The position numbers were made by a program, and so were the translations under genes. This document shows, one piece after another, positions 1 through 28,320 of a stretch of DNA of 64,000 bases; position 1 is the first letter of the stretch, and each line of letters begins with the position of its first letter. The notes beneath the pieces are model-generated. The model had not been told where the DNA came from, did no database searches, and was given only the letters and a program-made list of their open reading frames with translations. This DNA is from Limisphaerales bacterium. GTDB taxonomy: Bacteria > Verrucomicrobiota > Verrucomicrobiia > Limisphaerales > JAEYXS01. Location: the NCBI GenBank assembly GCA_965283725.1, contig CBDIPT010000009.1, positions 96,938-160,937 on the forward strand, in the 5' to 3' direction.

Positions 1-689
1 ATTACTTGGGTGGTGCCCTGACCGCGGCGGAAAAGCGCAGTGCAGCCGGCAAGTTCAAGCTGCCCGTGGTGTTGTGCCCGGCGGACAAGATCCCGACATA
101 CACGGCGACGTGGAACCAAGATGCCGCCGGCAATGAAGTGCAACGCCGCAGCTACTCGATGCCGCGCCATAACATGGGCATCGTGCCGGCCAGCGCGACT
201 ACCTTTACGACGGGGGCTGGTTACTCGATGAGCGGTGTTTCGCGCGCCGAAGACTGGCCGCCCAGCCCGGCGAACCGTTGCGGCATGGGGTTGAATTGGA
301 GCGATGGCGCCGGCACCTTCATTGGTTGGAATAATTTGGACGTTCGTGCGGGTGATAGCAGCTTGGATCCTTACCGGCAAATGGCGGTGCGCGGGGCAAT
401 CATCCAAGCCCCGGTGGAGACCATCTTGATGACGGAACGTTGGTCGCAATCGAGCCTGACGACTTATGGTTCGGGCTACATCCAGCGCGCGAATGAGCAC
501 AATCCGGCGAACGGCTCCGCGCCGATCTATCCCGCCGTGGACCTGAAGACGCATCACAACAGTTTCGTGAACTATCTGATGGTGGATGGACACGTGGAAC
601 AGCTTGATCCGGCCGCGACGCTGGGGGCGACAAACCGTTCTAACTTGGGCATCCAGTCCGGTATGTGGACGATCGCTCCGAACGACTAA
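1..689 (+). CDS. DUF1559 / H-X9-DG family protein, C-terminal part (5' end outside window)
   Basis: The ORF is open to the window edge. The C-terminal 'NYLMVDGHVEQLD' is an H-X9-DG motif, and the tail matches the full-length paralogs at 17108-18100 and 61424-62266. Confidence 0.7.
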   Translation, partial: YLGGALTAAEKRSAAGKFKLPVVLCPADKIPTYTATWNQDAAGNEVQRRSYSMPRHNMGIVPASATTFTTGAGYSMSGVSRAEDWPPSPANRCGMGLNWSDGAGTFIGWNNLDVRAGDSSLDPYRQMAVRGAIIQAPVETILMTERWSQSSLTTYGSGYIQRANEHNPANGSAPIYPAVDLKTHHNSFVNYLMVDGHVEQLDPAATLGATNRSNLGIQSGMWTIAPND

Positions 690-714
690 GCCCTAGTTCC
701 TGTTTTTGCGCCAA

Positions 715-743
715 CGGCCCTCAGCAATGAGGGCCGTTTTTTT
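715..743 (+). terminator. rho-independent terminator
   Basis: Stem-loop cggccctca-gcaa-tgagggccg followed by a T7 run, 26 nt after the stop codon. Confidence 0.65.
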
Positions 744-769: not shown

Positions 770-1207
770 TTACCGGGTCGGTTTCTCGTTTAACAATAAC
801 CAGTACAGCCCCAGCTGGCCGACGGCTTCGATGAATTGCTCGAAATCCACCGGTTTGCGGATGTAACTGTTTGCGCCGTTCGCGTAACCGTTCAAAATAT
901 CCTGTTCTTCCTTGGAAGAGGTCAGGATGACTACGGGGATGAGCTGGGTGCGCGGGTCGGCCCGGAGCCGTTTCAACACTTCGAGGCCATCCACCTTGGG
1001 CAGTTTGAGATCGAGCAAAATGACGGTGGGCTTTTGGGAGATGTCGCGGTTGGCATAGTTGCCCGTCCCGAAAAGGTAATCCAAGGCCTCCGCACCGTCG
1101 GTCACGACCTGCACGGCGTTCATTATGCGGTTCTTCTGGAAGGCGCGGAGGGTCAGCTCGACATCGTCCGGATTATCTTCCACCAGCAATATGTGCTTTT
1201 CGTTCAT
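770..1207 (-). CDS. single-domain response regulator (CheY-like receiver)
   Basis: Motifs 'ILLVEDNPDD', 'ILLDLKLPKVDG' (phospho-acceptor Asp) and 'VVILTSS...KP'. The ATG overlaps the kinase stop codon (ATGA at 1204-1207). Confidence 0.9.
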   Translation of the reverse strand: MNEKHILLVEDNPDDVELTLRAFQKNRIMNAVQVVTDGAEALDYLFGTGNYANRDISQKPTVILLDLKLPKVDGLEVLKRLRADPRTQLIPVVILTSSKEEQDILNGYANGANSYIRKPVDFEQFIEAVGQLGLYWLLLNEKPTR

Positions 1208-4200
1208 AGACCATCCTTTGGTTCGGGGAGTGTGAAATAGAACGTGGCACCCGCGCCGGGTTTCGCCTCGGCCCAGATGGAGCCGCCGTGGCGGTGGATC
1301 ACCCGTTGGACATTGGCCAGCCCGACACCGGTGCCTTCGAAATCGGTGCTGTTGTGCAGCCGTTGAAAGACGCCGAACAATTTGTTGGCGTAATTCATAT
1401 CGAAACCGGCGCCGTTATCCCGCACGTAGAACACGGTTTTACCATCTTGGAGATTAGCACCGAATTCGATCTTGGGCGAATCTTGCTTCTGCGTGAACTT
1501 CCACGCGTTGCCCAGCAGGTTGTCCAGCACCACGCGCAGGAGGCGGGGATCGCCATACGTGCGCAAGCCGGGGGTAAGTGACCATTCGACGACGCGATCT
1601 TTTTGCCCATCGTGCAACTCTTCTTTTACCAGACTGGCCATCTGGGAGAGGTCCACCGTGGTGCGATTGATCTCCGCACGGGTGACACGGGAGAGCTCAA
1701 GCAGATCATCGATGAGCTGGGCCATGCGTTTCGTGGCGTTGCGCACGCGTTGCAGGTAGCCATGGCCGGTTTTATCCAGCAGTACGGCATAGTCTTCCTC
1801 CAAGGCCTGGCTGAAACCATCGATGGCCCGCAAGGGCGCGCGCAGATCGTGTGACACCGAGTAACAGAATGATTCGAGCTCCTTGTTCGCGCTGGAAAGC
1901 TCGGCGGTGCGTTCGGCGACGCGCCGTTCGAGCGTGGCGTTCAACTGACGGATCTCGAACTCGGCCCGTTTCCGGGCGTCAATATCGATGATGGTGCCGA
2001 TCCATTCGCGCACGGAGCCGTCTTCGTTCAAGAGCGGCACGCCGCGAGTGACGCAGTAATGCCACGAGTCGGAGGGCGCATGCCAGTGGCGGGACTCGGC
2101 GACGAAAAGGGCTTTCTTCTCCTTGGCTTCCTGCCAGGCGGCGATCACGTGCGCCTGATCGTCCACATGGATCATCTTGAGCATGCCTTCCGTGCAGACT
2201 TGCTCCCAAGTCTGGCCGGTGAAGGCTTCCAGGATGGTTGCGGCACGACGACTTTGCCGTTGGCATCGGCCCCCCACACGATGGAGGAAGTTGCCGAGAC
2301 GAGCACGCGGTAGCGCTCCTCGCTGAGCTTCAGCGCAGACTCCGCTTCCTTGCGTTCCGTGATGTCCCGGATGAAGCCGGTGAAGAGCGGTTGCGCGCTG
2401 AACTCCACGCGGTTGATCGTCAGTTCAGCCGGAAAGCGGGAGCCATCTGCGCGGCAGGCTGTGAGCTCGATGCGGCGACCGAGGATGCGGCTCTCGCCCG
2501 TGCGCACACAATGCATCAGCCCGGCCCGATGCTGTGCCCGCAGTTCGGCTGGGATGATCTTTGAGCCCATATCCTGCCCGATGATCTCATTGTTCTGGTA
2601 GCCGAACATGCGTTCAGCCGCCGGGTTGAACTCCACCACGTGCCCTTGTTGATCGATAGTGATGATGCCATCGAGCGCCGAGGCCAGGATCGCTTGCGAA
2701 CGCGCCTGGCTCTCGCGCAATTCGTTCTGCGTGCGCAAGCGCTCCGTGATGTCCACCGCGATGCCGCCGATGTAGTCCTCCCCCTCGGTCTCTCCAGGGA
2801 TGATGAACTTGTTCACCAGATACGAGTGCGGGCCATCCGGCTGGATGAATTTTTCCACCACTTGCAAGGGCTGGCGGGCGTGCCGGAGGAGCTTGTCACT
2901 CTGCTGGAATTCCTCCGTCATGATCGACGGGAAGAGATCGCCATCGTGCAGGCCGCGGACCTGTTCGAGCTTGCGACCGAAGAGTTTTTCCCACGCGGCG
3001 TTGACGAAGATGTAGCGGCCCTGGCCATCCTTGATGAAGGCGATACCGGAAAGGTTCCCCATGAACGCCATGAACCGCTCCTGCATCTCGTGCAGCTCTA
3101 CCTCGGCCTCACGGGCGGTGGTGATATCCAGGGCGATGCCGCCCACGATATGCGACTCCGGGTTGGCTCCGCGCACGCGGAACTTGCTGGAGAGCCAGTA
3201 ACTGGGCTTTGCCCCGCGTGGGACAGTCTCCACCACTTGAACTGGTTTGCCCGTGGTAAGCACTTCTTCATCCGTGCGGGCAAAACCAGCGGCGATCTCT
3301 GCCGGGAAGATTTCTGCATCCGTCCGCCCGAGGACTTTTTCCGGGCCGAGATCGAAGATGTGTTTCCAAGCTTGGTTCACATAGAGGTAACGGCTCTGGG
3401 CATCTTTGATGAACGCCACACCGGGCAGGTGGGCCATGAACGCCTGAAAACGGCCTTCGGATTCGCGCAGTTCATCCTCGATGTTTTTGCGTTCGGTGAT
3501 GTCCGTCAGCATGGCGAGCACACCGATGAATTCCCCGTGGGCATCGTGCAGGGGATTCGCGCTGGCAAGCACCCAGAGCGCGGTGCCATCCGCCCGGCGC
3601 AACCGCAGGTCTTGCTGTTCCTGCGGGAAGACCCCCGTCTCGTTCGAAAGGGTGGAGATATCCTCCACGAGCAGAAACTCCTGCGCTGAACGGCCGAGGA
3701 TCTCTTCCGGCATACAGCCGAGCATATTCGCCAGGCGCTGGTTCACGAAGGTGGTGCGGCCGGCGATATCGGTCATCCAGATGCCTTCCTGGGTGGTCTC
3801 GACGATCTGGTGATAGCGCTCCTCCTGCTCGTGCAATTCTGCCTCGGTGCGGATACGGTTCATCGCTCCCGCGCAAAGGTCTGCGATGATCTGCAGGAGG
3901 TCCAAGTCCGCGGCGTTGTAAGCAAAGTGAGTATAGCTCTGAACCGAGAGCACGCCGAGGACTTGCTCGCCGCTGCGCACGGGGACGAACATCAGCGAAG
4001 CAGAAGGGCGGTTCGCATCGCCAAAACGGTTCAAGCCTTCGGAGCCCGCTTTGCCGGTGGGATCGCGGAGGATGAGTTTAGGGCCTTCCTTCAGCACCTT
4101 TTGTACAAGTGCGCTCGGCGGGGATTTGTCATACGCGGGCGGCACTTCCTGCCGGCGGCCGTTCACGGTATCGAGCGTATGCACGGCGCGGATCTGGTTC

Positions 4201-4982
4201 GTGCGTTCATGATACGCATCCAGGGAAAAAGCATCGCAGGTGAAAAGGCGGGTGCAGGTATTGGCCAGTTGACGCGCGGCTTCCAGTTCACTGCTGGTGG
4301 CGGAGATGACTTGTGTGAGCAGTGCAAACTCATGCTGGCGCCGTTCTTTCTCGACGTGCTCTTTGGCCAGCGCCTGGAGGCGTTCGTTCGCCTGGCTGAG
4401 TTCGGCGGTGCGTTCCTGTACGCGTTGTTCCAGGGAATTGTTCAGGCGTTTCACTTCGTCTGCTGCCTTGCGATGTTCCGCGATCTCCACGGCCAGTTGT
4501 TCGTTGGCCAGTTGCAACTGGCTGGGGCTGGGCAGCGCCAGAGCTTGGGGTATCAAGCGCCAGAGCAGGATGGCGGTGGGGACGGATGCGAGGGCCGTGA
4601 TGGCCTTGAAACTGCCTGAGAGCCAGTAATACGGCCGCCACACGGAAACGATCTCCATCACGTGCGTCATGCCGCAAGCGATGATGAAGATGGCAAAGCA
4701 GAGGAACATCCAATCAAAGCTCAGATCGCGCCGTTTCCGCACGAAATAGATGAGCGCGAATGGGATGGTGAAATAGGCGAGGGCGGTGAGACCGTCTGAA
4801 ATGACATGCAGGTATACGACGCTTGGATCCCAGATATAGCAGTGGCCATGCGGCATGAAATAGCCGGTGGTAAAAAGCTTTTCGCGCAGCAGCACACCGA
4901 GGAACAACAACAAGGCTGCGCCCGCGAGCATATACCCGAGGACATTTCGACTCCGTGGATCGGTGTGAGTCTGGATCTTCAT
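1204..4982 (-). pseudogene. multi-domain sensor histidine kinase (ethylene-binding-domain-like membrane module, GAF, multiple PAS, HisKA, HATPase_c) interrupted by one frameshift
   Basis: Two overlapping ORFs: 2172-5414 (plausible ATG at 4982, 'MKIQTHT...') and 1204-2277. One PAS domain spans the junction ('...IVWGADANGKVVVPQPSW' then 'EAFTGQTWEQV...'), and the frame switches at a G-run around 2230-2232. The C-terminal part carries the H-box 'SHDLRAPL' and ATP-binding boxes 'DNGAGF' and 'GTGVGL'. Confidence 0.85.
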
Positions 4983-5845
4983 GCAACTTCCTTCCGTGTC
5001 CGGCCGGTCCGCTGCCCATCTTCTTGCTAGGCGAGTGTGGTTGTGGTGGTGACCAAACAACTTGATCACGCGCAAGGCACACTTGCTGCCTCCCCTAAAT
5101 GAAAACTCCCGCTGGCCGGTGAACGCGTGCAGGATAGCCTCACTGATTCCTGAAAACAACTGCGCAAACAAAGACCGCGTCACGGAGTCCGGATGAGTGA
5201 TGCATGAATCGCCTGCGAACCGATCGTGCGGCGCGCGGAGTGAGGCTGGATGTGCCAACGCGGATTGAACGCGCAGCCGTGTGAGCGGGTCTGTAATGGT
5301 GGCTCCAATTGTGAACGCGCTATCTATATAGATAGAGGCCCAGCCGGTTATGCCTCGGCTGTTTCCCCGCGTTTCGTTGTCCTCCTTGGACTTTGAACAT
5401 GGGCGTATTCTCACCTAGGGGGTGGGACATAGGCTGTCCAACCCGCAAAATATTTTAGCTTCCGCTCGCCGTATTTCGACCAAATTGGTGAAACTCCTTC
5501 CCGCGCACGCCAAAGTAAACGCTATGTGAATACAATGTATTTACGGGAAAATTTGTAATCGCATGGGTGAATGAGCTGGGAAAGTCTGGGCTATGGAGGG
5601 TTTTGCTGGTGTAGAAAAGATCTTTTTTGGATGGTTTAAATTGTTCTTAAGTCTTTTGTTTTAAATGCTTTGTGAATTATTTTAAGTGTATGATATGGGT
5701 TGTTCCTGGTTCGATTGGGGAAGGACGGGTGAGAAAGGGGCGTAGCGCACGCAATTGTAACAACTTGGAGCAAAAAAACCCTTTGACTTTGGGGGGCTGG
5801 TCCGCCAAATTGAGCGTGCACACTAAATCAGCAAGTAACTCTCAA

Positions 5846-6478
5846 ATGAAAACTAAAGCTCTAATTCTTGCGGGATTGGTCTCGCTGGCCGGGGTGGTGG
5901 CGTCCCAAGCGCAGACGGTTTACTCCGTGAATATTGTTGGTTATGTTAATTTGACCATTCAGCCGGGTTTTTCGATGATTTCGAATCCTCTGCAAGGACA
6001 AAGCACTTCCATTCCTACTTTGATCCCTGCGCCGCCTGAAGGTACTTCGGTCTTCAAGTTCAACCCGGCAACAGGTGGTTATTCCGTTGCTCAGTTCGTT
6101 GATGGTGCGTGGGAAGGTTCTGCGGTGACATTGGCTCCCGGTGAAGGCGTCTTCATAAGGAATTCCTCAGCTTCTGCGTTCACGCTGACTTTTACGGGCG
6201 AAGTTGTTCAGTCTTCTTCTGTCGCTTTGCCGCAAGGTTTTTCAATTGCCAGCTCAGTTCTTCCGCAATCTGGTAGCCTTTCCTCTCAGTTACAGTTTCC
6301 TGTGACTGAAGGCGATGCTGTTTATTTCTACAACCCCAACACTGGCGGTTATAGCATCTTCAATTACATCGATGGTGCTTGGGAACCTACTGAGCCGGTG
6401 GCTCAAGCGGGTCAGGCCTTTTTCCTCCGCAAGAGTGCTGCGCGGAATTGGGTCAGAAATTTCACGTCCGGAACCTAA
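5846..6478 (+). CDS. secreted protein with internal duplication, unknown function
   Basis: Signal peptide 'MKTKALILAGLVSLAGVVASQAQ' at an internal ATG (5846) of ORF 5672-6478. Two repeats are present: 'NPATGGYSVAQFVDGAWE...PGEGVFI' and 'NPNTGGYSIFNYIDGAWE...AGQAFFL'. Confidence 0.7.
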   Translation: MKTKALILAGLVSLAGVVASQAQTVYSVNIVGYVNLTIQPGFSMISNPLQGQSTSIPTLIPAPPEGTSVFKFNPATGGYSVAQFVDGAWEGSAVTLAPGEGVFIRNSSASAFTLTFTGEVVQSSSVALPQGFSIASSVLPQSGSLSSQLQFPVTEGDAVYFYNPNTGGYSIFNYIDGAWEPTEPVAQAGQAFFLRKSAARNWVRNFTSGT

Positions 6479-6518
6479 TAACTTGGAACTGAAGATAATT
6501 CATTCGTAATTAATTTTT

Positions 6519-7088
6519 ATGAAAAAATTTCTAGCAATTGCACTGTTGTCTTTGGGTGCGCTTACTGGTTACTCGCAATCTGTCAACTTTGGTAATGTTG
6601 ACTTGGCCTATGACGCTAACGCGAATCTGATTGATTCATCCAAGTTGGTTCGTGACGTCTCCGCAAACCCTCTAACTGGCACCAACTGGAAAGCGGTTTT
6701 GTATGCTGGCACTCTTGCGAACTCTTTGACTCAGGTCAGCACGCCATTCAACTTTCGTGCTGGTACCACGACGCGCCCTGGCACATGGTCGGGTGGTGAT
6801 GTTACCTTGACTGGTTACAGCCAAGGTCAATCCATCTTTCTGAGCGTTAAGGTTTATGACGGCACCTTGTTCTCAACTTTTGAGAGCGCAGTCGCTGGTA
6901 ATGGCATCGTAGGTAGTTCGAGTGCTTTTGCTTACAGCATTCCTACTGCAGGTGCGCCCCCCTCTTCTTTTACCATGTCTAACTTCAGCGGTTTCCAACT
7001 CGCTGCGGTTCCTGAGCCGACGACCATCGCGCTCGGTGTGATGGGTGGCATGGCCCTCTTGGCCCGCCGCCGTCGCAACGCGGCCTAA
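6519..7088 (+). CDS. PEP-CTERM sorting-domain protein
   Basis: N-terminal signal peptide. The C-terminal 'VPEPTTIALGVMGGMALLARRRRNAA' gives the PEP motif, a TM helix and a basic tail. Confidence 0.85.
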   Translation: MKKFLAIALLSLGALTGYSQSVNFGNVDLAYDANANLIDSSKLVRDVSANPLTGTNWKAVLYAGTLANSLTQVSTPFNFRAGTTTRPGTWSGGDVTLTGYSQGQSIFLSVKVYDGTLFSTFESAVAGNGIVGSSSAFAYSIPTAGAPPSSFTMSNFSGFQLAAVPEPTTIALGVMGGMALLARRRRNAA

Positions 7089-7831: not shown

Positions 7832-9002
7832 ATGCGTCCCCCATTTTTCAAGACCATCTGCTACGTCCTCGAAGGGCTGAACGCCTTCGCAACGGCGTAT
7901 TATTTCAACTACCTGATGTTCCTGTTGCAGAAGGAATATCACTTCGATAACAAGCAGAACCTTGCCGTTGGTGCCGTTCACGGACTCATCTACGTGCTGG
8001 CTTCGTGGCTGGGTGGGAAGATCGGGCAGAAGGCGGGCTATTTCACCATCATGCGGGTCGGCTTCATCGGCATGGCCTTGAGCGTGGGGCTGGGGGCTTG
8101 TTCCCTTCCATCATCCTCCAACTCGTGGCCCTTGCGCTCTGGACCATCAGCATGTGCGTTACGTGGCCGATGCTTGAGGCGCTTGTCGCCGAGCATGAAG
8201 ATGCCACGGTGTTACCGCATCGTATCGGCCTCTACAACCTCATTTGGGCGGCCAGTGCGGCGGCCGCTTATTTCACCGGGGGCATGATCTTTGAATCGCT
8301 CGGGCTCAAGTCGCTCTATTGGTTGCCCGCCATCCTGCACATCGGGCAAATCCTGCTCACTCTGCCTTTGCAACGGTGGCATGATGAATGGCTCGCCAGC
8401 GCACCGCCTATCCGGGGTGAAGCGGCTGTACGTGGTGAAGGGGTCGGGAAACCGCGCTATTTCCAAAAGCTCGCTTTCATGGCGAATCCCTTCGCCTACA
8501 TGACGATCAATACCTTGCTCGCCGTCGTGCCTGTATCGCGGCGAATAATGGGCTGAGTGTGGCGGAGGCGGGGCGTATCATGTCCCTGTGGTTCATAGTG
8601 CGGGCCATCTCTTTTGTCGTGCTGTGGTTCTGGCACGGCTGGCATTATAAATTTGGCTGGTTCGTCGCGGCGTTCATCATGCTGCTCAGCGGCTTTCTGA
8701 CCCTCATGCTCGCCAACGCCGTCTGGCAGCTCATCGTCGCACAGATCGTCTTCGGCATCGCCACGGGCCTGATCTATTACTCCTCACTCTTCTACGCCAT
8801 GGATGGCAGCGAAGCGAAAGGGGAGCATGGCGGCATCCATGAAGCCCTCATTGGCGCCGGTATCTGCGCCGGTCCGGCCATCGGTGCTTTCAGCCTTACC
8901 TTGGCTCCGGGACACCCCACGGCCGCGGCTTGGGCAGTGAGCGGTATTCTGCTCTTGGGGCTGGGCGGGCTGTTCAAGGTCCGAATGGGTAAAAAGACTT
9001 AA
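7832..9002 (+). pseudogene. MFS-type transporter broken by two frameshifts
   Basis: Three consecutive ORFs (7832-8287, 8005-8556, 8559-9002) together encode one polytopic protein. The first switch is at G5 run 8092-8096 ('SVGLG|GLFPSIILQ'). The second is near 8533 ('LLAVVP|GIAANNGLSVAEAG'). Confidence 0.75.
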
Positions 9003-9980: not shown

Positions 9981-10016
9981 AGGCCGCGTTCATCCCGAAC
10001 GCGGCCTTTGTTTTTT
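9981..10016 (+). terminator. rho-independent terminator
   Basis: Stem aggccgcgtt-catcccg-aacgcggcct followed by ttgtttttt. Confidence 0.7.
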
Positions 10017-27060: not shown

Positions 27061-28320
27061 ATGATTCACGAACGCAATCAATGCCGGGCTTGTGGTTCCG
27101 CACGGCTCGAACTGATCGTTGACCTGGGCAAGACGGCCTTGGCGAATGATTTTTTGGACGCCGGCGAGGTGTTCAGCTACCGCACTTTTCTGCCCTTGCG
27201 CCTTCGTTTGTGCCGGGACTGTACGCTCGTCCAGCTCGCGGAAGTCGTCGATCCTGGCGTGCTGTATTCCCGTTACGCCTACGTGACCTCCACCTCGCGC
27301 ACGATGGATGAGCATCTCTCCGCTCAAGCCAAGCATGTGCTGGCATCGGCTGGGGTTTCGGGGCGTCCAAAGGTGCTGGAGATCGCGAGCAACACCGGCC
27401 TGTATCTGCAAAAGTTCAAGGCCCTAGGCTGCGATGTCATCGGCGTGGAGCCGGCCCGCAACATCGCGGAACTGGCCGAACAATCCGGCATTCCTACCTG
27501 GACCGATTTCTTCAATGCACCCAATGCCGAGCAAGTACGTCAAGAATGGGGTAGTCCGGATATCATCTTGGGTCGGCATGTGTTCGCCCATATCGATAAC
27601 TTGCAAGATCTGGTGAAGGGCCTGGAAACGCTGGCGCACGAGCGCACATTGGTCGGCTTTGAAGTGCCTTATCTCGTCGATTTCTTCGAGAAGACGGAAT
27701 ATGACACGGTCTATCACGAGCATCTTTCCTACGTTTCCGTGACATCGGTAGAAGCGTTGCTGAAAGGCACTCCGTTCCAATTGGAACGCGTGGAATACTA
27801 TCCGATCCATGGCGGATCCATTCTGTTCCAGTTCCGTCGTAAATCTGCCGGGGTGCCAGTGCACGAAAGTGTGGCGGCCTATCTGAAGAAGGAAGCGGAT
27901 TTGAAGCTCAGTGAACCGGCTACATGGGAGCCGTTTGTGCAGCGCGTGCAATCCATCCGGGAAGAATTGCCCAAGCTCGTGCGCAAGCTGCGCGCGGAAG
28001 GCAAACGGGTCATCGGCTACGGAGCATCCGCCAAGGGCAACACGCTCCTGAATACCTGTGGTTTCACGGATAAAGACCTCGACTACATCATCGACAACAC
28101 GCCGTTCAAACAGGGCAAGGTGGCCCCGGGTTCGTGGATTCCGGTGAAGCCACCGGAGACGTTGTTGAAGGATCAACCGGACTATGCACTCTTGCTGGCC
28201 TGGAATTTCGCCCCAGAGATCGTCCGGCGTGAGGTAGAATATCAGCAGCGTGGTGGTCGCTTCTTGGTGCCGATTCCGGCCCCCAAAATCATCGAGTTTA
28301 ACGGCCAGCCGGCCTTGTAA
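27061..28320 (+). CDS. NDP-hexose C-methyltransferase family protein
   Basis: N-terminal Cys pairs 'CRACGS...CRDC', a central SAM-methyltransferase fold ('VLEIASNTG') and a C-terminal domain ('GYGASAKGNTLLN') typical of sugar C-methyltransferases (TylC3-like). Confidence 0.7.
   Translation: MIHERNQCRACGSARLELIVDLGKTALANDFLDAGEVFSYRTFLPLRLRLCRDCTLVQLAEVVDPGVLYSRYAYVTSTSRTMDEHLSAQAKHVLASAGVSGRPKVLEIASNTGLYLQKFKALGCDVIGVEPARNIAELAEQSGIPTWTDFFNAPNAEQVRQEWGSPDIILGRHVFAHIDNLQDLVKGLETLAHERTLVGFEVPYLVDFFEKTEYDTVYHEHLSYVSVTSVEALLKGTPFQLERVEYYPIHGGSILFQFRRKSAGVPVHESVAAYLKKEADLKLSEPATWEPFVQRVQSIREELPKLVRKLRAEGKRVIGYGASAKGNTLLNTCGFTDKDLDYIIDNTPFKQGKVAPGSWIPVKPPETLLKDQPDYALLLAWNFAPEIVRREVEYQQRGGRFLVPIPAPKIIEFNGQPAL

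What the first reader, a model, noticed from the sequence alone, without database searches (positions are those of the whole stretch)
1204..4982. Plant-type ethylene-binding-domain (EBD)-GAF sensor kinase with coupled orphan receiver in a PVC bacterium
The three N-terminal TM helices (about 4500-4850) align without gaps, from my recollection of the sequence, to helices 1-2 of Arabidopsis ETR1. The window sequence 'ISDGLTALAYFTIPFALIYFVRKRRDLSFDWMFLCFAIFIIACGMTHVMEIV' matches ETR1 '[52 protein letters not shown]'. The Cu(I)/ethylene ligands Cys65 and His69 of ETR1 are conserved as Cys103 (codon 4674-4676) and His107 (codon 4662-4664). The helix-1 Asp, Tyr and Ile-Pro residues are also conserved. 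A GAF domain follows directly, as in plant receptors, then multiple PAS domains and the kinase core. A single-domain receiver gene is translationally coupled (ATGA at 1204-1207). EBDs outside plants and cyanobacteria are known mainly from sequence surveys and are rarely characterised. An EBD feeding five or so PAS modules is an unusual architecture.
Basis: partly seen in the sequence, partly recalled or inferred. Interest (0 to 1): 0.65.

Follow-up and report, generated by a model that had tools for sequence, protein, structure and literature searches.

The report
Bacterial ethylene-receptor-type sensor kinase
A soil or freshwater Verrucomicrobiota bacterium carries a two-component sensor kinase whose membrane part is a clear relative of the copper-containing ethylene-binding domain of plant ethylene receptors; it is an ordinary member of a very large, already named bacterial family, and its apparent frameshift is almost certainly an assembly error.

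Summary
The minus-strand gene 4982..1204 encodes a 1259-aa sensor histidine kinase once a missing base at 2229-2230 is restored. Residues 53-150 match Pfam ETR1_N (PF25487) end to end (E 2e-39). All seven ETR1 residues needed for ethylene binding are conserved, including the Cu(I) ligands (Cys103, His107). So is the Asp-Lys bridge (Asp63, Lys126). The domain is 51% identical to that of AzoEtr1, a bacterial receptor shown to bind ethylene. A coiled coil, a GAF domain, five PAS domains and an intact kinase core follow. A stand-alone receiver gene overlaps the stop codon (ATGA), as at AzoEtr1.

The novelty claims do not hold. The family has about 8,757 sequence clusters. More than 90% of the bacterial homologues checked keep all seven residues, and domain-plus-multi-PAS kinases are common. 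The receiver is paired, not orphan.

The frameshift is a one-base homopolymer deletion. A 99.4%-identical intact allele exists in two metagenomes, and the window has similar deletions elsewhere, so it is most likely an assembly error.

Extras: a fourth N-terminal helix, a conserved FMPHGxCYLW motif, and a FixL/DosP-like PAS4 that keeps the haem-ligand histidine. Verdict: new member of a known kind.

The parts
1204..4982 (-). Sensor histidine kinase gene. It encodes 1259 aa once one base is restored at 2229-2230. As the sequence stands it reads as two ORFs: frame A from 4982 to 2172, and frame B from 2277 to 1204.
   Evidence: Intact orthologues are P0456 (1259 aa, 8 differences), P0193 (1272 aa) and P0194 (1255 aa).
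4987..4995 (-). Shine-Dalgarno-like GGAAGGAAG, 4 nt upstream of ATG 4982.
   Evidence: Orthologues keep the same N-terminal extension.
4887..4943 (-). Extra N-terminal hydrophobic helix TM0 (residues 14-32), which places the next segment outside the cytoplasm. Only about 10% of homologues have room for it.
   Evidence: Hydropathy; AF2 helix 9-36; conserved in P0193 and P0194; motif position statistics.
4830..4859 (-). Conserved motif FMPHGHCYIW (residues 42-51) before TM1. It includes Cys48, the only Cys in the position where plant receptors have their dimer disulfide cysteines.
   Evidence: H45 372/374, C48 371/374 and W51 372/374 in bacterial homologues. The single Cys of cyanobacterial receptors is noted in PMC6682694.
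4533..4826 (-). Ethylene-binding domain: three transmembrane helices, residues 53-150.
   Evidence: Pfam PF25487 ETR1_N, E 1.8e-39, profile 2-97/97. AF2 helices 53-83, 90-115 and 119-149, mean pLDDT 85.8. Alignment with plant receptors and AzoEtr1.
4794..4796 (-). Asp63, equivalent to ETR1 Asp25. In ETR1 this residue makes a polar bond to the His ligand and to Lys91.
   Evidence: Invariant column. Role described in PMC10266040 and PMC11971883.
4674..4676 (-). Cys103, equivalent to ETR1 Cys65 (Cu(I) ligand).
   Evidence: Invariant column. Conserved in all four orthologues.
4662..4664 (-). His107, equivalent to ETR1 His69 (Cu(I) ligand).
   Evidence: Invariant column.
4605..4607 (-). Lys126, equivalent to ETR1 Lys91 (TM3 partner of the Asp; signal transmission).
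   Evidence: Role described in PMC10266040.
4293..4532 (-). Helical, coiled-coil-like linker (residues 151-230).
   Evidence: No Pfam domain matches this stretch. AF2 helix from 153 onward. The rest is read directly from the sequence.
3858..4292 (-). GAF domain (residues 231-375).
   Evidence: Pfam GAF_2 E 7e-11, GAF E 1.6e-9.
2712..3830 (-). PAS1 (residues 385-505), PAS2 (510-632) and PAS3 (636-757).
   Evidence: PAS_4, PAS_3 and PAS matches. DIT-E/T-R linker motifs at residues 494, 619 and 744.
2337..2705 (-). PAS4 (residues 760-882), of FixL/DosP-like haem-PAS type. His818 (2529-2531) aligns with the proximal haem ligand.
   Evidence: All 13 PDB hits with E of 4e-13 or better are FixL or DosP haem-PAS chains. 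His conserved in orthologues and in 169/173 similar PAS domains of the family.
1960..2327 (-). PAS5 (residues 886-1008). It is interrupted by the frame break.
   Evidence: The repaired segment gives a full-length Pfam PAS match, 1-113/113.
2229..2230 (-). Frame break. The window reads GG (CC on the + strand) where all relatives have GGG: TCC TGG AAG in the window against ACx TGG GAx in the relatives.
1684..1872 (-). HisKA dimerisation and phospho-acceptor domain (residues 1038-1100). The phospho-acceptor is His1045 in SHDLRAP (1849-1851).
   Evidence: Pfam HisKA; motif position.
1219..1554 (-). HATPase_c catalytic domain (residues 1144-1255) with N, G1, F and G2 boxes present.
   Evidence: Pfam HATPase_c E 1e-23; motifs DNLLGNA, DNGAGF, FGVFQRL and GTGVGL.
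770..1207 (-). Cognate single-domain response regulator (145 aa; Asp66, Thr96, Lys118). Its start codon overlaps the kinase stop codon (ATGA, 1204-1207).
   Evidence: Pfam Response_reg. PDB 5brj 6.6e-44, RcpB and RcpA. The 4-nt overlap is conserved in L014-L017.
713..738 (.). 11-bp perfect hairpin between the convergent genes. A T-run follows it on the + strand only.

Best explanation
This is a bacterial two-component receptor of the ETR1/SynEtr1/AzoEtr1 type.

Proposed mechanism:
- An N-terminal helix (TM0) inserts the protein so that the conserved FMPHGxCYLW segment faces the periplasm.
- The next three helices form the ethylene-binding domain.
- Cys103 and His107 on helix 2 hold one Cu(I) inside the membrane. 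Asp63 on helix 1 polarises the His and bridges to Lys126 on helix 3.
- Ethylene (inferred ligand) binds the copper. The change passes through helix 3 and the coiled coil to the GAF and five PAS modules.
- Those modules can add further inputs. PAS4 looks like a haem PAS.
- The combined signal sets autophosphorylation of His1045.
- The phosphoryl group goes to Asp66 of the co-translated single-domain receiver. That receiver has no output domain, so it must act by protein-protein contact on an unknown target.

Shown here: domain identities, residue conservation, gene pairing, and intact alleles in relatives.
Inferred: copper loading, ethylene as the ligand, the direction of regulation, and the output.

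The frame break at 2229-2230 is most likely an assembly error, so the organism probably makes the full protein.
For: - Pfam ETR1_N scores 134 bits over the full profile length.
- The alignment with five database plant receptor fragments, recalled ETR1 and AzoEtr1 has invariant columns at D63, Y70, I73, P74, I100, C103, H107 and K126. These equal ETR1 D25, Y32, I35, P36, I62, C65, H69 and K91.
- Those residues are described as required for ethylene or copper binding in PMC6586836, PMC8879215, PMC11819568 and PMC10266040.
- The domain is 51% identical to that of AzoEtr1. I identified AzoEtr1 by its length of 525 aa and by the published cloning primer, which encodes its first residues (MFGGVEAF). 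Its first 130 residues bind ethylene saturably (PMC11819568).
- AzoEtr1 also has a downstream single-domain receiver that overlaps its stop codon, the same gene layout as here.
- The kinase and receiver catalytic motifs are complete.
- The orthologues show purifying selection. There are 8 amino-acid changes among about 54 nucleotide differences from L016, and 15 of the 17 differences downstream of the frame break are synonymous in frame B.
- Four of the five indels against L016 over 12 kb are one-base homopolymer deletions in the window. Two of them split an MFS gene that is intact in L016.
Against: - No biochemical data exist for this protein or for any verrucomicrobial member.
- No solved structure of the domain exists to check geometry, and the AlphaFold database library was unavailable.
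- The family is so large (8,757 clusters), and found in so many free-living soil and water bacteria, that a single physiological ligand for all members is not assured.
- The conserved FMPHGxCYLW motif has no plant counterpart and no known role.
- As the sequence stands, the kinase core is out of frame.
Confidence: 0.7

Rival explanations
1. The membrane domain is a true homologue of the ethylene-binding domain, but in this bacterium it reports something other than ethylene. Candidates are periplasmic or membrane Cu(I) availability, redox state, or another small Cu(I)-binding ligand such as another alkene or CO.
For: - The family is very abundant in free-living environmental bacteria of many phyla.
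- A nearly invariant Met/His/Cys-containing motif, FMPHGxCYLW, precedes helix 1 and is absent from plant receptors. It could be a second metal site.
- Only two bacterial members have been tested (PMC11819568, PMC6682694).
Against: - All seven residues needed for ethylene binding, plus the Asp-Lys bridge, are conserved here and in more than 90% of the homologues checked.
- Both bacterial members that were tested bind ethylene.
Confidence: 0.15
2. The gene is a genuine pseudogene in this strain. A real one-base deletion truncates the sensor after PAS4 and removes the kinase core, so the system is dead here.
For: The window, and the NCBI gene call made from the same contig (P0195, 1003 aa, which lacks the kinase part), carry the frame break. 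The run is only three bases long, which is short for a typical homopolymer error.
Against: - Two metagenome contigs with 98.6% nucleotide identity carry the intact 1259-aa gene.
- 15 of the 17 substitutions downstream of the break are synonymous in the shifted frame.
- The window shows three more one-base homopolymer deletions within 12 kb. Two of them break an unrelated MFS gene. That is the signature of consensus errors.
- There is no slippery heptamer that would allow programmed frameshifting.
Confidence: 0.1
3. The three-helix domain serves here mainly as a membrane anchor and dimerisation module. The physiological signals enter through the cytoplasmic GAF and PAS domains, for example O2 or redox through the FixL-like PAS4.
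For: - The protein has six cytoplasmic sensor modules.
- PAS4 matches only haem-PAS structures and keeps the proximal His.
- Paralogues without the membrane domain (P0196-P0200, 42-57% identical) have the same GAF-PAS-kinase module in Verrucomicrobiota.
Against: A mere anchor would not keep every ligand-binding residue under selection. The domain is 74-87% identical among orthologues, with all key residues invariant.
Confidence: 0.05

Closest known systems
AzoEtr1 / AzoRR(etr1) of Azospirillum brasilense (PMC11819568)
   Same: - Bacterial ethylene-binding domain with all seven binding residues; 51% identity over the domain.
- The same FMPHGxCYLW-type N-terminal motif (LPHGVCLFW in AzoEtr1).
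- A PAS-containing histidine kinase.
- A stand-alone receiver gene immediately downstream whose start overlaps the kinase stop codon.
   Different: - AzoEtr1 is 525 aa with one PAS domain, no GAF and no TM0. The window protein is 1259 aa with a coiled coil, GAF and five PAS domains.
- The receivers are only 22% identical. The one here is of the Rcp1/RcpA phytochrome type.
- The host is an alphaproteobacterium associated with roots, not a verrucomicrobium.
SynEtr1 (Slr1212/UirS) of Synechocystis, and GeiEtr1/2 of Geitlerinema (PMC6682694)
   Same: - An ethylene-binding domain fused to GAF/PAS-type sensor modules and a functional histidine kinase that signals to a response regulator.
- A single N-terminal Cys.
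- GeiEtr1 has the order ethylene-binding domain, GAF, kinase.
   Different: - In SynEtr1 the GAF is a bilin-binding cyanobacteriochrome. I found no evidence of that here.
- SynEtr1's partner regulator has an output domain (stated from memory).
Arabidopsis ETR1 and other plant ethylene receptors
   Same: - Homologous three-helix Cu(I)/ethylene-binding domain: 30-34% identity to the plant sequences and recalled ETR1, E 1e-14 to a wheat fragment.
- The same Cys/His/Asp/Lys constellation.
- A GAF domain and a histidine-kinase-like domain downstream.
- The extra N-terminal hydrophobic segment recalls subfamily 2 receptors.
   Different: - No detectable similarity beyond the ethylene-binding domain.
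- Five PAS domains are inserted.
- One N-terminal Cys instead of two.
- Output is by classical His-Asp phosphotransfer to a separate receiver, not through CTR1/EIN2.
FixL / DosP haem-PAS oxygen sensors (for PAS4 only)
   Same: - All PDB sequence matches with E of 4e-13 or better, the best at 8e-20, are FixL or DosP haem domains.
- The proximal His (FixL H200) and the distal residues I215, L236 and I238 are conserved as H818, I833, L854 and I856 (FixL numbering from memory).
   Different: - The distal Arg (FixL R220) aligns with Ile838; Arg836 and Arg837 sit one and two positions earlier.
- FixL R206 aligns with His824.
- Haem binding has not been tested.

Membership tests
Ethylene-binding domain family (Pfam PF25487 ETR1_N) | Profile HMM match above the curated threshold over the whole domain | tested here: met
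   134 bits against a cut-off of 27, E 1.8e-39, profile positions 2-97 of 97.
Ethylene-binding domain family (Pfam PF25487 ETR1_N) | Three consecutive transmembrane helices at the N-terminus | tested here: met
   Hydropathy peaks. AF2 helices 53-83, 90-115 and 119-149 with pLDDT around 90. One additional helix lies upstream.
Ethylene-binding domain family (Pfam PF25487 ETR1_N) | Cu(I) ligands Cys65 and His69 of ETR1 on helix 2 | tested here: met
   C103 and H107 fall in the invariant columns of alignment A1 with plant receptors and AzoEtr1.
Ethylene-binding domain family (Pfam PF25487 ETR1_N) | All seven residues required for ethylene binding in ETR1 (D25, Y32, I35, P36, I62, C65, H69) | tested here: met
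   D63, Y70, I73, P74, I100, C103 and H107 are all identical. The residue list was assembled and from memory of Wang et al. 2006, which was not readable here.
Ethylene-binding domain family (Pfam PF25487 ETR1_N) | Asp25-Lys91 polar bridge that couples binding to helix 3 | tested here: met
   D63 and K126 are conserved. Role described in PMC10266040.
Ethylene-binding domain family (Pfam PF25487 ETR1_N) | Copper-dependent, saturable, high-affinity ethylene binding | not testable with these tools
   Needs a 14C-ethylene binding assay on the expressed domain.
Bacterial ethylene-receptor two-component systems (SynEtr1, AzoEtr1) | Ethylene-binding domain fused to a catalytically complete HisKA/HATPase_c kinase | tested here: met
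   After repair of the one-base gap, H1045 and the N, G1, F and G2 boxes are all present. The frame is intact in P0456, P0193 and P0194.
Bacterial ethylene-receptor two-component systems (SynEtr1, AzoEtr1) | Adjacent cognate response regulator in the same operon | tested here: met
   ATGA overlap at 1204-1207. The 4-nt overlap is conserved in L014-L017. AzoEtr1 has the same layout.
Plant-type receptor architecture (EBD-GAF-kinase, with or without receiver) | GAF immediately after the ethylene-binding domain, homologous to the plant GAF, with the kinase next | tested here: not met
   An 80-residue linker precedes the GAF. There is no pairwise similarity to a plant fragment beyond the ethylene-binding domain (that fragment holds only part of the GAF). 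Five PAS domains lie between GAF and kinase.
FixL/DosP haem-PAS (PAS4 only) | Proximal His haem ligand at the FixL H200 position | tested here: met
   H818 aligns with it in HMMER alignments to FixL chains and is conserved in orthologues.
FixL/DosP haem-PAS (PAS4 only) | Distal Arg that stabilises bound O2 (FixL R220), and actual haem binding | tested here: inconclusive
   The aligned residue is Ile838, with Arg836 and Arg837 adjacent. Haem binding cannot be tested with these tools.
Rcp1/RcpA/RcpB-type single-domain response regulators | Stand-alone receiver closely related to phytochrome-associated regulators, with Asp/Thr/Lys active-site residues | tested here: met
   PDB 5brj 6.6e-44, 5ic5 1.3e-42, RcpB 1.8e-27, RcpA 1.5e-25. 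D66, T96 and K118 are present.

The most novel reading that the evidence does not exclude
The protein is a dual gas sensor. A membrane Cu(I) site senses ethylene and a FixL-like haem PAS (PAS4, His818) senses O2, or NO/CO. One kinase integrates both. This would let a verrucomicrobium read ethylene together with oxygen status, for example near roots or in waterlogged, anoxic soil where ethylene builds up. The nearly invariant periplasmic FMPHGxCYLW motif would act as the copper-acquisition or dimerisation site specific to bacterial receptors. The pairing is recurrent: 16 of 110 unbiased family representatives of at least 400 aa carry a His-bearing FixL-like PAS.
Probability: 0.3. Interest if true: 0.5.

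Novelty: new member of a known kind. Interest (0 to 1): 0.3.

Why it matters
Ethylene perception outside plants has been shown experimentally in only a few bacteria: Synechocystis, Geitlerinema cells and Azospirillum. This locus adds a well-conserved candidate from Verrucomicrobiota, with intact alleles available for cloning. I found no paper on ethylene receptors in that phylum. It also illustrates how large and uniform the bacterial family is. Its practical value is modest. It offers a test case for whether free-living soil and freshwater bacteria sense ethylene, and for whether ethylene and haem-based gas sensing are combined in one kinase. It does not change what is known about how the domain works.

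Tried and rejected
- PDB searches for the membrane domain found nothing by sequence or by fold. No solved structure exists.
- The AlphaFold-database Foldseek library was not available. The structural comparison with ETR1 models, and the Cys/His pocket geometry, could therefore not be checked. The predictor returns no coordinates.
- The scan of GTDB species genomes found no close orthologue, only the domain in Proteobacteria, Myxococcota-like, Acidobacteria and cyanobacterial MAGs.
- Exact look-ups of the receiver and of P0195 in the contig index failed. The organism was inferred instead from cluster mates.
- Rfam found nothing in the window.
- NCBIfam gave no hit for the partial neighbour ORF 6-689.
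- Programmed -1 frameshifting was considered and rejected. There is no slippery heptamer at TCC TGG AAG, and similar homopolymer deletions occur in other genes.
- Alternative starts (Met18, GTG at Val30) would give the usual three-helix N-terminus. I rejected them because only ATG 4982 has a Shine-Dalgarno-like sequence and both distant orthologues keep the TM0 extension.
- The long upstream ORF extension to 5414 was rejected. That stretch is full of substitutions and has an indel against L016.
- A LOV-type PAS4 (weak YtvA_fam hit) was set aside. I see no NCRF-type flavin-cysteine motif on reading the sequence, and all strong PDB hits are haem PAS.
- Wang et al. 2006 and Lacey & Binder 2016 could not be read.
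- My recalled ETR1 sequence was not confirmed at 100%. The best database plant fragment was 91% identical, so database plant sequences were used beside it.

Full report
**What is there**

The region holds two minus-strand genes. The first starts at ATG 4982, which is preceded by GGAAGGAAG four bases upstream. It runs in one frame to a stop at 2172. A second frame, 2277..1204, continues the protein.

Joining the frames at TCC TGG|GAA (one extra G) gives a 1259-aa protein. Its Pfam matches are:
- ETR1_N (residues 55-150, E 2.7e-39, profile 2-97 of 97)
- GAF (231-375)
- five PAS stretches
- HisKA (1038-1100)
- HATPase_c (1144-1255)

The second gene, 770-1207, is a 145-aa stand-alone receiver. Its ATG overlaps the kinase TGA as ATGA at 1204-1207.

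**Is the ethylene-binding domain real?**

Yes. I aligned the N-terminus with:
- five plant receptor fragments from the protein database (named 'ethylene receptor', 'ethylene response sensor 1', 'EIN4');
- ETR1 as I recall it, used only for numbering (the best database match to it was 91% identical);
- AzoEtr1 of Azospirillum brasilense Sp7.

I recovered AzoEtr1 from plasmid p1. I identified it by its published length of 525 aa and by the published cloning primer, which encodes its first residues, MFGGVEAF.

The invariant columns are D63, Y70, I73, P74, F96, F99, I100, C103, G104, H107, K126, S133, T136 and P145. In ETR1 numbering these are D25, Y32, I35, P36, F58, F61, I62, C65, G66, H69, K91, S98, T101 and P110.

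These include both Cu(I) ligands and the seven residues reported as required for ethylene binding. They also include the Asp25-Lys91 bridge proposed to transmit the signal.

Identity over the alignment is 29-34% to the five plant fragments and recalled ETR1, and 48% to AzoEtr1. tblastn gives 51% to AzoEtr1. AzoEtr1 residues 1-130 bind ethylene saturably.

An AlphaFold2 model of residues 1-170 has mean pLDDT 85.8. It shows helices at 9-36, 53-83, 90-115, 119-149 and 153-169. No solved structure resembles the domain by sequence or by fold.

**How common is it?**

Very common.
- A full scan of 1.84 billion cluster representatives with the domain alone gave 8,757 clusters at E of 1e-3 or better, and 2,091 at 1e-30 or better.
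- Among 373 bacterial homologues collected here, 353 keep all seven residues. Of the 376 that also count this protein's own three near-identical or orthologous copies, all keep Lys126 and all but four keep Cys48.
- Roughly 110 of the 120 best full-length hits combine ETR1_N with several PAS domains and a kinase, up to 1,642 aa. Some 15 also have GAF. Named examples come from Verrucomicrobiota, Acidobacteria, Chthoniobacterales, cyanobacteria and Thermodesulfobacteriota.

So the architecture is not unusual. Putative receptors in many bacterial phyla are already described in the literature.

**Organism**

All ten window proteins I looked up sit on one NCBI contig of 183,869 bp. The cluster mates, at 90% identity or more, of the methyltransferase at 27061-28320 are named Verrucomicrobiae, Verrucomicrobiota or Verrucomicrobia MAG proteins.

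Neighbouring genes fit this. They are a PEP-CTERM protein and, in the orthologous loci, N_methyl proteins with faint SBP_bac_10 (DUF1559) hits. 'PVC bacterium' is supported.

**The frameshift**

- Two orthologues are uninterrupted and share the synteny NUDIX, two small secreted proteins, kinase, overlapping receiver, N_methyl protein. They are P0193 (79% identical, 1272 aa) and P0194 (77% identical, 1255 aa).
- A near-identical allele, P0456, occurs on two JGI metagenome contigs. It is exactly 1259 aa and differs from my repaired protein at 8 positions.
- At the break the relatives read TGG GAx, where the window reads TGG AA.
- Over the coding region the window and L016 differ at about 54 nucleotides but only 8 amino acids. 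Downstream of the break, 15 of 17 differences are synonymous in the shifted frame.
- Over the 12 kb shared with L016 there are five indels. Four are one-base homopolymer deletions in the window, at 2230, 8096, 8533 and 10016. Those at 8096 and 8533 split an MFS transporter gene that is an intact 390-aa gene in L016.

This pattern points to consensus errors in the assembly rather than gene decay. There is no slippery site for programmed frameshifting.

1. There is a fourth, N-terminal hydrophobic helix (residues 14-32). It is conserved in the orthologues. In 336 of 374 homologues the conserved motif sits within the first 25 residues, so this helix is a minority variant. It is topologically compatible with the domain, because it keeps the start of helix 1 outside and the C-terminus inside.
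2. The segment before helix 1 carries FMPHGHCYIW. In bacterial homologues the consensus F-M-P-H-G-x-C-Y-L-W is almost invariant. Plant receptors lack it, apart from a Cys and a Trp in the aligned region. The single Cys probably makes the dimer disulfide, as suggested for cyanobacterial receptors. A role in copper handling is speculation.
3. PAS4 (residues 760-882) matches only haem-PAS oxygen sensors in the PDB at E of 4e-13 or better: FixL at 8e-20 to 5e-18 and DosP at 5e-17 to 4e-13.
   - His818 aligns with the proximal haem ligand. The distal hydrophobic residues are kept, but the distal Arg is displaced (FixL numbering from memory).
   - The other four PAS domains of the protein do not resemble PAS4.
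   - The His is kept in 169 of 173 similar PAS domains of family members.
   - 16 of 110 unbiased family representatives carry such a PAS.
4. The receiver belongs to the Rcp1/RcpA/RcpB phytochrome-type class and is only 22% identical to the AzoEtr1 partner. It is a paired partner, not an orphan.

**Mechanism**

The best-supported reading is a Cu(I)-dependent ethylene sensor. Its signal passes from helix 3 through a coiled coil into a GAF and five-PAS integrator. That sets phosphorylation of His1045 and transfer to Asp66 of the receiver (motifs).

- Shown: homology, residue conservation, complete catalytic motifs, operon structure, purifying selection.
- Inferred: copper loading, ethylene as the physiological ligand, the sign of regulation, and the output.

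Rival readings are another Cu(I)-dependent signal, a true pseudogene, and a domain that is mainly a membrane anchor. They are listed with their tests.

**Verdict**

The thing itself is an ordinary, uncharacterised member of a large, named and partly characterised family. The 'plant-type', 'orphan', 'unusual' and 'frameshifted' elements do not survive checking.

The novelty class is new member of a known kind, and interest is about 0.3. The most novel reading still open is a combined ethylene and haem-based gas sensor, at probability about 0.3.

Noticed in passing
window 7832-9002 (+); indels at 8096 and 8533: An MFS transporter gene is split into three ORFs by two one-base homopolymer deletions relative to L016, where it is an intact 390-aa gene. 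A further T-run deletion lies at 10016, just upstream of ATG 10022. This suggests the window comes from an assembly with homopolymer consensus errors, so other 'frameshifts' in this window deserve the same suspicion.
   Followed up: partly
window 2337-2705 (-), PAS4; His818 at 2529-2531: PAS4 resembles the haem-binding PAS of FixL and DosP. The proximal His and the distal hydrophobic residues are conserved, but the distal Arg is displaced by one to two positions. Similar His-bearing PAS domains recur in about 15% of family members found with the ethylene-binding domain alone.
   Followed up: partly
window 4830-4859 (-), residues 42-51: The motif F-M-P-H-G-x-C-Y-L-W before helix 1 is almost invariant in 374 bacterial homologues and absent from plant receptors. 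Its role is unknown; it could be a dimer disulfide or a copper-handling site.
   Followed up: partly
window 4887-4943 (-), residues 14-32: [quoted passage not shown] It is conserved in the three orthologues but present in only about 10% of homologues, and it is reminiscent of plant subfamily 2 receptors.
   Followed up: partly
window 4983-5671 (intergenic), especially 5272-5324: The 690-bp region between the divergent kinase gene and the secreted-protein genes has a dense cluster of substitutions against the otherwise 98%-identical L016: about 25 mismatches in 50 nt at 5272-5324, plus an indel at 5362. The cause is unknown.
   Followed up: no
window 5672-7088 (+) and 6-689 (+); L014, L015, L016: Synteny around the kinase-receiver pair is conserved in four related loci. 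On one side lie two small secreted proteins (one PEP-CTERM) and a NUDIX hydrolase. On the other lies an N_methyl protein with faint SBP_bac_10 (DUF1559) hits. The cell-surface flavour of these neighbours recalls the surface and biofilm outputs of SynEtr1 and AzoEtr1, but no functional link was tested.
   Followed up: partly
window 713-738: An 11-bp perfect hairpin (AACGGCCCTCA GCAA TGAGGGCCGTT) followed by a T-run on the + strand lies between the convergent genes. It is probably the terminator of the + strand gene. No T-run follows it on the minus strand for the kinase-receiver operon.
   Followed up: partly
proteins P0196-P0200 (related loci, not in the window): Verrucomicrobiota proteins of 838-965 aa share 42-57% identity with the GAF-PAS-kinase part, including a PAS4-like domain, but lack the ethylene-binding domain. 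This suggests the membrane sensor was gained or lost as a module.
   Followed up: no
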